A stretch of 64,000 nt of DNA from the human T2T-CHM13v2.0 reference genome, Homo sapiens. The notes below the pieces were generated by a model, which searched no databases, had not been told where the DNA came from, and saw only the letters and a list, made by a program, of their open reading frames with translations. The translations under genes were made by a program, and so were the position numbers. The DNA lies in contig CP086569.2 of the NCBI GenBank assembly GCA_009914755.4, forward strand, positions 15,840,001 to 15,904,000. The letters run 5' to 3'. Each line of letters begins with the position of its first letter. Positions within the stretch are counted from its first letter, which is position 1. Positions 7,222-8,389 of this stretch are shown in pieces.

Positions 7222-8389
7222 CATTTTCTTTTTTTTTTCATGATCTATATGGTTTTCTTTTTAATTATCTTTAGTTTTGTGATCACACATAATTTTAAAA
7301 TTTGTGTATATCTCCATTACTTTAATCCTTTTAAGGTGGCAAAAGCACCATTCCCAATCACAAATACACAGTTCTACAGTTTTATGTTTCTGAATGGCTG
7401 TTTAAAGACAATCCTAAATTATAACTTAGTTTGACTTCGACTGTAAAGAATACAAGAGTGAAGTTTAACTTGCTACTATTTTAAAAGCATGTGATCTTAT
7501 AGATCTATAAGATGTGAGAGGTGTTGAATAATCTTTAATATTACACATAAACCACACTAAAATGACTTTCAATAAGTAAAAGGAACCATTTTAAATACAG
7601 GGAATTATAATTAGATTGGCATAGTTAAGGCCAAAACTATAGACATTGCTACCTTATTTATCTTCAACCCTTGCCTTTAAGAGGGAAATGAACACAAAAC
7701 ACAGGTGAATCTTGCTTGGTTCTAAGACAGTGAAAGAATTTCCCCAGTATTTACATATATTCACATAACCAGTTATATAAATCTAAATATAAAACCAATC
7801 TCCAGTAAGTTTTAAGATGGCACTCACCATCTTTGTGAAAAGTTGAACATTACTAACGAAGTCTAATCATATCTTTAGAAGGGGTAAACAGTGATAGCGT
7901 TTACGGAATTGGAGTTACTATTAAAATTCAAAAACTGAACATATTTATTTAACCACAAGCCAGTATTAGTTTTAAATCAGGACTGCCCAACAAAATATTC
8001 TGTCAGTCATTCATGATCTGAATTCTGGTGTATGAGATATATTAAATGATGGTACACATCAAAAAAGTTAGGAGACATTTCTGTTTTGTAATAAATAAGG
8101 CAGTAGCTTACTCATTAGTAGCTTTTTTGAGATAAGCTATCAAGTCTGCCCTTTCTTCCTTTTTCTTAATGCTGACAAAGATCATTTTTGTTCCAGCGAT
8201 GTACTTCTTGGGATTCTCCAAATACTCCATCAGTGTATCCTCTCCGCAAATGATGCCTTTGTTCTTATTGGTGGCTGTGTAAGAATATGCAGGGGCCTGA
8301 CCTGTCTTCTGTTCCCAGTGCCACACCGTTGAAAAGGGAGGCAAGCATAAGACTGGGCCAAATCTCCATGGTCTCTTTGGGTGAAAGAC
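7222..8389 (-). pseudogene. CYCS: Cytochrome c (CYCS) processed pseudogene: 5'-truncated, frameshifted, with an inverted 5' segment. The 3' boundary is tentative, at the poly-T at 7222-7240 with ATTAAA about 25 nt upstream.
   Basis: The minus-strand ORF 8108..8431 translates to ...[66 protein letters not shown]. This is nearly identical to the human cytochrome c C-terminus [66 protein letters not shown]. It is intronless and followed by 3'UTR-like sequence. Confidence 0.8.
8311..8389 (+). pseudogene. CYCS: Inverted 5' segment of the CYCS retrocopy. It is cytochrome c codons ~14-40 read on the plus strand, the opposite orientation to the rest of the pseudogene.
   Basis: The plus strand reads gttcccagtgccacaccgttgaaaagggaggcaagcataagactgggccaaatctccatggtctctttggg, which is the sense sequence of CYCS ([24 protein letters not shown]). 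It abuts cctgtcttct at 8301-8310, which is the antisense of GGAAGACAGG. The two segments overlap at mRNA position ~GGAAGACAGG. Confidence 0.8.

What the first reader, a model, noticed from the sequence alone, without database searches (positions are those of the whole stretch)
7222..8389. Cytochrome c retrocopy with a twin-priming-type 5' inversion
The CYCS-derived sequence is in two pieces of opposite polarity that meet at 8310/8311.

The minus-strand piece, 8310 down to 8108, covers codons ~RKTGQAP... through the stop, and 3'UTR-like sequence continues below. The plus-strand piece, 8311-8389, covers the more 5' codons ([24 protein letters not shown]).

The two pieces overlap at the same mRNA position (GGAAGACAGG). 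The inverted piece stops inside the CDS at GTTCCCAG, so the copy is 5'-truncated with no ATG.

This is the architecture expected when L1 machinery retrotransposes an mRNA with twin priming: an inverted 5' segment joined to a direct 3' segment at a shared internal position. It is well known for L1 itself but only occasionally documented for processed pseudogenes. It also explains the frameshifted N-terminus of ORF 8108..8431.
Basis: partly seen in the sequence, partly recalled or inferred. Interest (0 to 1): 0.5.

Follow-up and report, generated by a model that had tools for sequence, protein, structure and literature searches.

The report
Cytochrome c retrocopy with inverted 5' end
This is a dead, intron-less copy of the cytochrome c (CYCS) mRNA, pasted into an ape-type genome by LINE-1 machinery with its first 72-80 bases flipped; it is a clean but ordinary example of the known "twin priming" mechanism.

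Summary
Window 8309->7239 (minus strand) is spliced CYCS mRNA from codon 39/40 through the stop and 869 nt of 3'UTR. It ends at an ATTAAA poly(A) site and carries a 9-10 nt A-tail. Window 8310-8381 (plus strand) is CYCS codons 15-38.

Against the gibbon CYCS gene the locus gives opposite-strand alignments (95% identity). They share only gene positions 8905-8910 (GAAGAC), and the 105-nt intron is missing exactly. The whole composite is flanked by an 18-nt target-site duplication (17/18): 7212-7229 and 8382-8399. The target site is an L1-endonuclease-like TTCT/AA.

They are therefore target DNA that resembles the mRNA (6/8), the primer-template microhomology that twin priming predicts.

Lineage-specific divergence is about 2.6%, and the Ile58 codon is hominoid-type. 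Both suggest an insertion roughly 20 Myr old.

However, 5' inversions occur in 13-21% of new processed pseudogenes, so this is a textbook case, not a rarity. An L1 at 13.3-18.7 kb in the same window shows the same architecture.

The parts
7212..7229 (.). Target-site duplication, copy next to the poly(A) end: TGAAAGACTGCATTTTCT. A minimal reading is 7214-7229.
   Evidence: the repeat finder family D2: 18 nt, 17/18 identical to 8382-8399, spacing 1170. A match of >=17/18 was reached in 1 of 3000 random anchor pairs at the same spacing.
7230..7238 (-). Poly(A) tail remnant: 9 T on the plus strand, 10 if 7229 is counted.
   Evidence: Sequence. The gibbon gene continues ATTTTTTTACTG at this point, so the A-run is not templated by the gene.
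7260..7265 (-). ATTAAA polyadenylation signal, 20 nt (7240-7259) upstream of the last retrocopy base, 7239.
   Evidence: The Old World monkey retrocopies L004 and L005 (probably orthologous to each other) end at the same site.
7239..8107 (-). CYCS 3'UTR, 869 nt, as copied from mRNA.
   Evidence: 95.2% identity to gibbon CYCS exon 3, L002 9061-10080.
8108..8309 (-). Direct (poly(A)-primed) CDS segment: CDS nt 117-318, K40..E105 plus the TAA stop (8108-8110). The exon 2/exon 3 junction lies at 8257/8256 with the intron precisely absent.
   Evidence: Translation. blastn to L002 exons with the 105-nt intron (L002 8958-9062) missing.
8310..8381 (+). Inverted (internally primed) CDS segment: CDS nt 43-114, C15..G38. 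The similarity runs on to 8389 (nt 122) through the TSD.
   Evidence: Translation. blastn to L002 8831-8910, 95%, E=2e-31. Alignment shown.
8382..8399 (.). Target-site duplication, copy next to the inverted end: TGAAAGACTACATTTTCT. Its first 8 nt (TGAAAGAC) match mRNA CGGAAGAC at 6/8. This is the inferred annealing site of the second-strand primer.
8396..8403 (+). Inferred first-strand nick site TTCT/AACA on the plus strand (L1 endonuclease consensus TTTT/AA). The nick falls between 8399 and 8400 of the pre-insertion sequence.
   Evidence: Sequence. The T-run that primes on poly(A) directly follows the other TSD copy at 7229/7230.

Best explanation
This is a single L1-mediated retrotransposition of a spliced, polyadenylated CYCS mRNA, resolved by twin priming.

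Inferred order of events:
1. L1 ORF2p nicked the plus strand at CATTTTCT/AACA. The T-rich 3' end primed on the poly(A) tail of a CYCS mRNA that had been cleaved at the ATTAAA site 869 nt after the stop.
2. That first cDNA ran up to CDS nt 117.
3. The other strand was cut 16-18 nt away. Its 3' end (5'-...GTCTTTCA-3') annealed inside the same mRNA at CGGAAGAC (nt 115-122). It primed a second cDNA that ran from nt 114 to nt 43.
4. The two cDNA ends were joined at 8309/8310 with no clear microhomology.

The result is TSD, inverted nt 114->43, direct nt 117->end, A-tail, TSD.

The copy was dead on arrival: no ATG, no promoter, and a disrupted reading frame. It has since decayed neutrally (5 amino-acid changes and a 6-nt deletion after the stop).

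Shown by the sequence: intron loss, poly(A) site, A-tail, TSD, nick-site motif, segment geometry, microhomology. Inferred: the enzyme (ORF2p) and the order of events.
For: 1. Opposite-strand alignments to the gibbon CYCS gene share only gene positions 8905-8910. The same result comes from a colinear retrocopy, L001.
2. The 105-nt intron is exactly absent.
3. The copy ends 20 nt after an ATTAAA signal, followed by an A-run that the gene does not encode. The retrocopies L004 and L005 end at the same site.
4. An 18-nt TSD (17/18) brackets the whole composite. The empirical chance is about 1/3000.
5. The nick site is TTCT/AA.
6. The RNA coordinates abut. The inverted piece ends at nt 114-122 and the direct piece starts at nt 117. 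The chance of two independent end points falling within +/-3 nt on a ~1.2 kb RNA is about 0.6% (my calculation).
7. The insert-proximal end of the TSD matches the mRNA just 3' of the inverted piece at 6/8 nt (5/6 on the minimal reading). The binomial chance is about 0.004 (my calculation). Twin priming predicts this match; a later inversion does not.
8. Both pieces show similar decay: 1 substitution in 72 nt for the inverted piece and 28 in about 1057 nt for the direct piece. Both carry recent-type CYCS residues (S15; Y46, I58, V83).
9. 5' inversions are an established feature of processed pseudogenes.
Against: - There is no microhomology at the internal join 8309/8310. Cooke et al. usually saw 1-4 bp. 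At most 1-2 nt could be argued, if 8310 T is a decayed CpG C.
- The primer's 3'-terminal base would be mismatched (A opposite C) unless the TSD is read as 16 nt.
- No empty site or orthologous locus could be retrieved, so the pre-insertion sequence is inferred from the two TSD copies only.
- Everything rests on one assembly of the locus.
Confidence: 0.9

Rival explanations
1. An ordinary colinear, 5'-truncated CYCS retrocopy was inserted. Later a 72-74 bp DNA inversion flipped exactly its 5'-most segment.
For: If 8382-8383 (TG) is read as decayed CG (nt 115-116), the two pieces are perfectly contiguous: nt 43-116 inverted and nt 117-end direct. A simple inversion would also give that result.
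Against: - One breakpoint would have to coincide to the nucleotide with the insert/TSD boundary. That is about 1 chance in 1000 along the element.
- It does not explain why the TSD end resembles the mRNA at the inversion point (5/6 to 6/8 nt, p about 0.004).
- No inverted repeats flank the 8310-8383 segment that could mediate an inversion.
- The structure is common for L1-driven insertions.
Confidence: 0.05
2. Two independent CYCS-derived insertions, or a fragment from another CYCS pseudogene, landed side by side in opposite orientation.
For: CYCS has dozens of retrocopies in primate genomes. A catalogue of 49 human copies is cited, and many 'cytochrome c-like' hits appear.
Against: - The plus-strand piece has no poly(A) and no TSD of its own.
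- One TSD pair brackets both pieces.
- The RNA end points abut within 3 nt.
- The divergence of the two pieces is compatible with one age.
Confidence: 0.01
3. Assembly or cloning artefact: a chimeric join at 8309/8310.
For: Only one assembly of the locus was available. Two metagenome scans for the junction and for the flank found nothing.
Against: An artefact would not produce a matching TSD at the outer end of the flipped piece. Nor would it place the break exactly where the RNA coordinates abut. A second element in the window (L1, 13.3-18.7 kb) has the same biological architecture with its own TSD.
Confidence: 0.02

Closest known systems
Twin-primed (5'-inverted) L1 insertions (Ostertag & Kazazian 2001, Genome Res 11:2059; as cited in PMC12016303 and PMC3996531)
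   Same: An inverted 5' segment and a direct 3' segment come from one RNA. Their RNA coordinates abut or overlap by a few nt. A single TSD brackets both. The tail is poly(A) and the nick site is EN-type. The overlap of 6 nt (or a 0-2 nt gap) falls within the reported range: median overlap 12 bp, quartiles 4-17.
   Different: The template is a cellular mRNA mobilised in trans, not L1 RNA. The inverted piece is very short (72-80 nt; germline L1 median 751 bp). No microhomology is seen at the internal join.
5'-inverted processed pseudogenes, somatic (Cooke et al. 2014, PMC3996531) and polymorphic germline (PMC12016303)
   Same: Same class of event: a spliced mRNA copy, 5' truncation, TSD, TTTT/AA-like site, and a single internal inverted rearrangement away from splice sites. 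Microhomology is present at the 5' insertion point (they report 1-3 bp; here 5-6 bp).
   Different: This one is old and fixed: about 2.6% lineage-specific divergence and an A-tail shrunk to 9-10 nt. It is neither somatic nor polymorphic.
Human CYCS processed pseudogene family (Zhang & Gerstein 2003, Gene 312:61, '49 cytochrome c pseudogenes'; reference seen). The recent class of Evans & Scarpulla 1988 is recalled from memory.
   Same: It derives from CYCS mRNA with the modern primate-type residues S15, Y46, I58 and V83. It uses the same ATTAAA poly(A) site as the retrocopies L004 and L005.
   Different: I could not establish which catalogued copy (CYCSPn) this is, or whether the catalogue records the inverted 24-codon piece. 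No primate genome browser or coordinates were available.
The L1 at window ~13292-18668
   Same: It has the same architecture in the same window. The minus-strand 3' piece carries the RT domain. The plus-strand 5' piece carries ORF1 and the EN domain. The overlap is 26 nt and the TSD is CTGTCTGTYAT.
   Different: It is an autonomous element copied in cis, and its inverted piece is about 2.95 kb long.

Membership tests
L1-mediated processed pseudogene (retrocopy) | Introns of the parent gene precisely absent | tested here: met
   The gibbon CYCS intron (L002 8958-9062, GT..AG) is missing. The exons are joined at window 8257/8256.
L1-mediated processed pseudogene (retrocopy) | 3' end at a genuine poly(A) site, followed by an untemplated A-tail | tested here: met
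   ATTAAA lies at 7260-7265 and the A9-10 tail at 7230-7238. The gene reads ATTTTTTTACTG at that point. The retrocopies L004 and L005 end at the same site.
L1-mediated processed pseudogene (retrocopy) | Target-site duplication of about 7-20 bp flanking the insert | tested here: met
   18 nt, 17/18 identical, at 7212-7229 and 8382-8399. Chance is about 1/3000.
L1-mediated processed pseudogene (retrocopy) | Insertion at an L1 endonuclease-type site (TTTT/AA) | tested here: met
   The reconstructed target is CATTTTCT/AACATAAT, which is TTCT/AA and matches 5 of 6 consensus positions. The consensus is from established knowledge and PMC12016303.
L1-mediated processed pseudogene (retrocopy) | Dependence on L1 ORF2p | not testable with these tools
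   Inferred from the hallmarks only.
Twin-priming 5' inversion | Two segments of one RNA in opposite orientation, with the inverted one being the more 5' part of the RNA | tested here: met
   The inverted piece is CDS nt 43-114 (up to 122). The direct piece is nt 117-1187.
Twin-priming 5' inversion | The outer end of the inverted segment and the inner end of the direct segment map to adjacent or overlapping RNA positions | tested here: met
   nt 114-122 against nt 117. This reads as a 6-nt overlap or a 0-2 nt gap, depending on where the TSD is taken to begin.
Twin-priming 5' inversion | A single TSD brackets the composite, with the inverted segment abutting the 5' TSD copy | tested here: met
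   The TSD copy at 8382-8399 directly follows the inverted piece.
Twin-priming 5' inversion | Complementarity between the second-strand 3' end (the TSD end) and the RNA at the internal priming site | tested here: met
   TGAAAGAC against CGGAAGAC gives 6/8. AAAGAC against GAAGAC gives 5/6. p is about 0.004 by binomial calculation.
Twin-priming 5' inversion | Microhomology at the internal inversion junction (usual, not obligatory) | tested here: not met
   At 8309/8310 neither segment can be extended by a matching base. At most 1-2 nt could be argued if 8310 T is a decayed CpG. Cooke et al. say microhomology is 'usually' present, so this is not a defining failure.
Recent (modern primate-type) class of CYCS pseudogenes | Carries the derived primate or hominoid residues of present-day CYCS rather than the ancestral mouse-like ones | tested here: met
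   S15, Y46, I58 and V83 match human cytochrome c 1j3s. Codon 58 is ATT, against ATC in gibbon and siamang and ACC in the Old World monkey copies. The class definition is recalled from Evans & Scarpulla 1988 and Zhang & Gerstein 2003; I did not read either here.

The most novel reading that the evidence does not exclude
The locus may be an unusually well-preserved single-event record of the internal priming step on a non-L1 template. It shows a 16-18 nt second-strand overhang whose last 6-8 nt pair with the mRNA (5 Watson-Crick pairs, one G:T, one further C:G pair, and possibly a mismatched terminal base). The inverted cDNA is only 72 nt long. If the inverted 24-codon piece is not recorded in existing CYCS pseudogene annotation, this is an undescribed hominoid-specific twin-primed CYCS retrocopy. 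It could serve as a phylogenetic marker and as a data point on ORF2p primer requirements in trans.
Probability: 0.3. Interest if true: 0.2.

Novelty: already known. Interest (0 to 1): 0.15.

Why it matters
The main value is for annotation. The 24-codon plus-strand fragment and the minus-strand pseudogene are one insertion event, not two features. The 107-aa ORF 8108..8431 is an artefact of reading across the inversion junction. The locus is also a clean teaching example of twin priming acting on a cellular mRNA, because the primer-template microhomology is still visible. It adds nothing new to the mechanism: 5' inversions in processed pseudogenes are documented at 13-21% frequency.

Tried and rejected
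- Exact-protein look-up of the 107-aa ORF found no record.
Human NM_018947 could therefore not be used. I used gibbon and siamang CYCS genes (L002, L003) and a human-derived retrocopy contig (L001) instead.
- Proteins named 'cytochrome c' from Mandrillus and Chlorocebus (P0126, P0127) turned out to be intron-less retrocopies, not the parent gene. No true Old World monkey gene was available to polarise changes. P0001 had no contig on record.
- Two metagenome scans, one for the inversion junction and one for the left flank plus TSD, found nothing. So there is no independent assembly, no empty site and no species identification.
- Rfam found nothing in the window.
- The Ostertag & Kazazian 2001 paper is not held. 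Its content is cited through later papers.
- cDNA snap-back or self-priming is rejected. It would give an inverted duplicate of the direct piece, whereas the two pieces cover different RNA intervals.
- RT template switching is rejected. It cannot change strand polarity.
- I considered whether the shared T51 and S84 replacements (also seen in P0001, P0006, P0012, P0042) mark a common ancestor allele. Both are G->A changes at CpG sites (gcCGcc, gtCGgc). Recurrent CpG decay is the simpler reading.

Full report
**What is there**

The plus strand 8310-8381 translates to [24 protein letters not shown]. The minus strand 8308->8108 translates to [66 protein letters not shown] followed by a stop. Joined, these match residues 14-104 of human cytochrome c (PDB 1j3s) with E=4e-53. 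Only R38 falls between them, and there are five replacements. Pfam assigns PF00034.

**Nucleotide reference**

Human NM_018947 could not be obtained. A protein search and a cluster listing led to the intron-containing CYCS genes of Hylobates moloch (L002) and Symphalangus (L003). blastn of L002 against the window gave three segments:
- L002 9061-10080 = window 8258->7238, minus strand, 95.2% over 1027 nt.
- L002 8905-8958 = window 8309->8256, minus strand.
- L002 8831-8910 = window 8310->8389, plus strand, 95%, E=2e-31.

The gene's 105-nt GT..AG intron (L002 8958-9062) is precisely absent, so the copy came from spliced mRNA. A colinear CYCS retrocopy from a human lung metagenome contig (L001) gives the same two opposite-strand segments.

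**The 3' end**

The homology stops at 7239, 20 nt after an ATTAAA signal (7260-7265, minus strand). It is followed by 9-10 A. The gene itself continues ATTTTTTTACTG at that point. The Old World monkey retrocopies L004 and L005 end at the same site before their own A-rich tails. They are probably orthologous to each other, because they share downstream sequence. So this is a genuine CYCS poly(A) site 869 nt after the stop.

**Target site**

The repeat finder reports an 18-nt direct repeat with 17/18 identity: 7212-7229 TGAAAGACTGCATTTTCT and 8382-8399 TGAAAGACTACATTTTCT. It lies exactly outside the A-tail on one side and outside the inverted piece on the other. In 3000 random anchor pairs at the same spacing, with +/-15 nt of slack, a match of >=17/18 was reached once. 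The reconstructed empty site reads ...TTTGAAAGACTRCATTTTCT/AACATAAT... The first nick is therefore at TTCT/AA, one base off the L1 endonuclease consensus TTTT/AA.

**Geometry**

I number the CDS from the ATG at L002 8789. The script started one base later, at 8790, so its printed mRNA coordinates are one lower than those used here.
- The inverted piece is nt 43-114. Its similarity continues to nt 122 through the TSD.
- The direct piece is nt 117-1187 (with that offset corrected).

Read in the sense of the direct piece (window minus strand), the order is: 5' TSD, antisense nt 114->43, sense nt 117->1187, A-tail, 3' TSD. The more 5' RNA segment is flipped, and its outer end maps next to the start of the direct segment. 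This is the arrangement twin priming predicts. The shared position sits at the two far ends of the inverted piece's frame of reference, not at the join.

**The 'overlap' is the priming site**

Bases 8382-8389 (TGAAAGAC) resemble mRNA nt 115-122 (CGGAAGAC) at 6/8. The same bases occur at 7212-7219 beside the A-tail, so they are target DNA. The minus-strand 3' end left by second-strand cleavage is 5'-...GTCTTTCA-3'. It can pair with the mRNA through five Watson-Crick pairs, a T:G wobble and a C:G pair, with a terminal A:C mismatch.

Alternatively, the TSD is 16 nt and TG at 8382-8383 is a decayed CpG (CG, nt 115-116). In that case the primer GTCTTT pairs with GAAGAC and the two cDNAs are exactly contiguous.

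On either reading the microhomology has a binomial chance of about 0.004 (my calculation). It is predicted by twin priming and not by a later DNA inversion.

**The internal join**

The 8309/8310 join shows no unambiguous microhomology.

**Rivals**

- A later inversion would need a breakpoint exactly at the insert boundary. It also leaves the microhomology unexplained.
- Two independent insertions are contradicted by the single TSD pair, by the lack of a second A-tail, and by RNA end points abutting within 3 nt (chance about 0.6%).
- Snap-back synthesis would duplicate sequence, which is not seen.
- Template switching cannot invert polarity.
- An assembly artefact would not create the TSD. I could not obtain an independent assembly.

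**Age and source**

In a six-sequence alignment, 29 of 1129 comparable columns are substitutions unique to the window copy (2.6%). There are 15 transitions and 14 transversions, and 3 of the transitions are at CpG sites. The inverted piece carries 1 substitution in 72 nt and the direct piece 28 in about 1057 nt, which is compatible with one event.

With a neutral rate of roughly 1-1.5e-9 per site per year (general knowledge), this is on the order of 17-26 Myr. Codon 58 is ATT (Ile). It is ATC in the gibbon and siamang genes and ACC (Thr) in the Old World monkey copies. Thr58 in macaque against Ile58 in human is the classical single difference (general knowledge). The source mRNA was therefore probably hominoid-type, and the window probably comes from an ape or human genome.

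The T51 and S84 replacements, shared with several other retrocopy-derived proteins, are CpG transitions. They are best read as recurrent decay.

**Comparison with what is known**

5' inversions attributed to twin priming were reported in 21% (9/42) of somatic processed pseudogenes, with 1-3 bp of microhomology at the 5' insertion point (PMC3996531). They were reported in 13% (3/23) of polymorphic processed pseudogenes and in 18-22% of L1 insertions (PMC12016303; see also PMC4151081). Human CYCS pseudogenes have been catalogued (Zhang & Gerstein 2003, reference seen). The finding is therefore a correct reading of an ordinary, known kind of structure. I could not determine which CYCSP entry it is.

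**Context**

The window is AT-rich (30-46% GC across 2-kb windows, about 33-35% around the retrocopy) and full of primate repeats. Alu heads occur at six places, and there are several L1s and a retroviral pol remnant.

The L1 at about 13292-18668 has the same architecture. Its RT-encoding 3' part is on the minus strand, and its ORF1 and EN-encoding 5' part is on the plus strand. The junction is at 15717. The two pieces overlap by 26 nt relative to the neighbouring L1. The TSD is CTGTCTGTCAT / CTGTCTGTTAT.

Noticed in passing
window 13280-18679: An L1 with a classical twin-priming 5' inversion. Window 13294-15717 is the minus-strand 3' part (RT domain, PF00078). Window 15717-18668 is the plus-strand 5' part (ORF1 PF02994/PF17490 and EN domain PF03372). 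Relative to the neighbouring L1, the two pieces share 26 nt (ref 23048-23073). The poly-T run is at about 13292-13302. The TSD is CTGTCTGTCAT (13280-13290) and CTGTCTGTTAT (18669-18679)..
   Followed up: partly
window ~20052-25707 (+), possibly starting near 19.1 kb: A near full-length L1 on the plus strand with broken ORF1 and ORF2 (ORFs at 20980-21372, 22226-25214). It is 91-93% identical to the inverted L1 next to it. The GC-richer stretch at 19.2-19.8 kb may be its 5'UTR; I did not check this.
   Followed up: partly
window 25530-26296 and 37600-37900: Long TTCC/GGAA-type low-complexity tracts that give spurious 150-235 aa ORFs rich in S, F, L and P. Both tracts are adjacent to L1 3' ends. 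The second lies next to an L1 ORF2 C-terminal fragment at 38029-38604 on the minus strand.
   Followed up: no
window 53443-54729 (+): A retrovirus-like pol remnant. ORF 54397-54729 hits the RT-associated RNase H domain PF17919 (E=1.7e-7). By eye, ORF 53443-53787 looks protease-like, but it has no Pfam hit.
   Followed up: partly
window 2825, 3199, 27455, 29606, 40542 (-) and 50436 (+): Six Alu left-arm matches with 0-3 mismatches to GGCTCACGCCTGTAATCCCAGCA. None are expected by chance. This confirms a primate origin for the window.
   Followed up: no
window ~41473-41904: A TA/CA-type microsatellite-like tract, which produces an ORF full of Y, I, V, C and T repeats.
   Followed up: no
L004 ~4190-4300 and L005 (Old World monkey CYCS retrocopies): The two monkey retrocopies annotated as 'cytochrome c' (Mandrillus, Chlorocebus) are intron-less with intact ORFs. 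They share the same downstream (TG)n plus Alu sequence, so they are probably orthologous to each other. Gene annotation in these genomes labels retrocopies as the gene.
   Followed up: partly
window 8102-8107 (just 3' of the stop on the minus strand): The retrocopy lacks 6 nt (TAATTG) that are present immediately after the stop codon in the gibbon and siamang genes and in the other retrocopies. It also has a 4-nt insertion about 85 nt further on. These are ordinary post-insertion indels.
   Followed up: no
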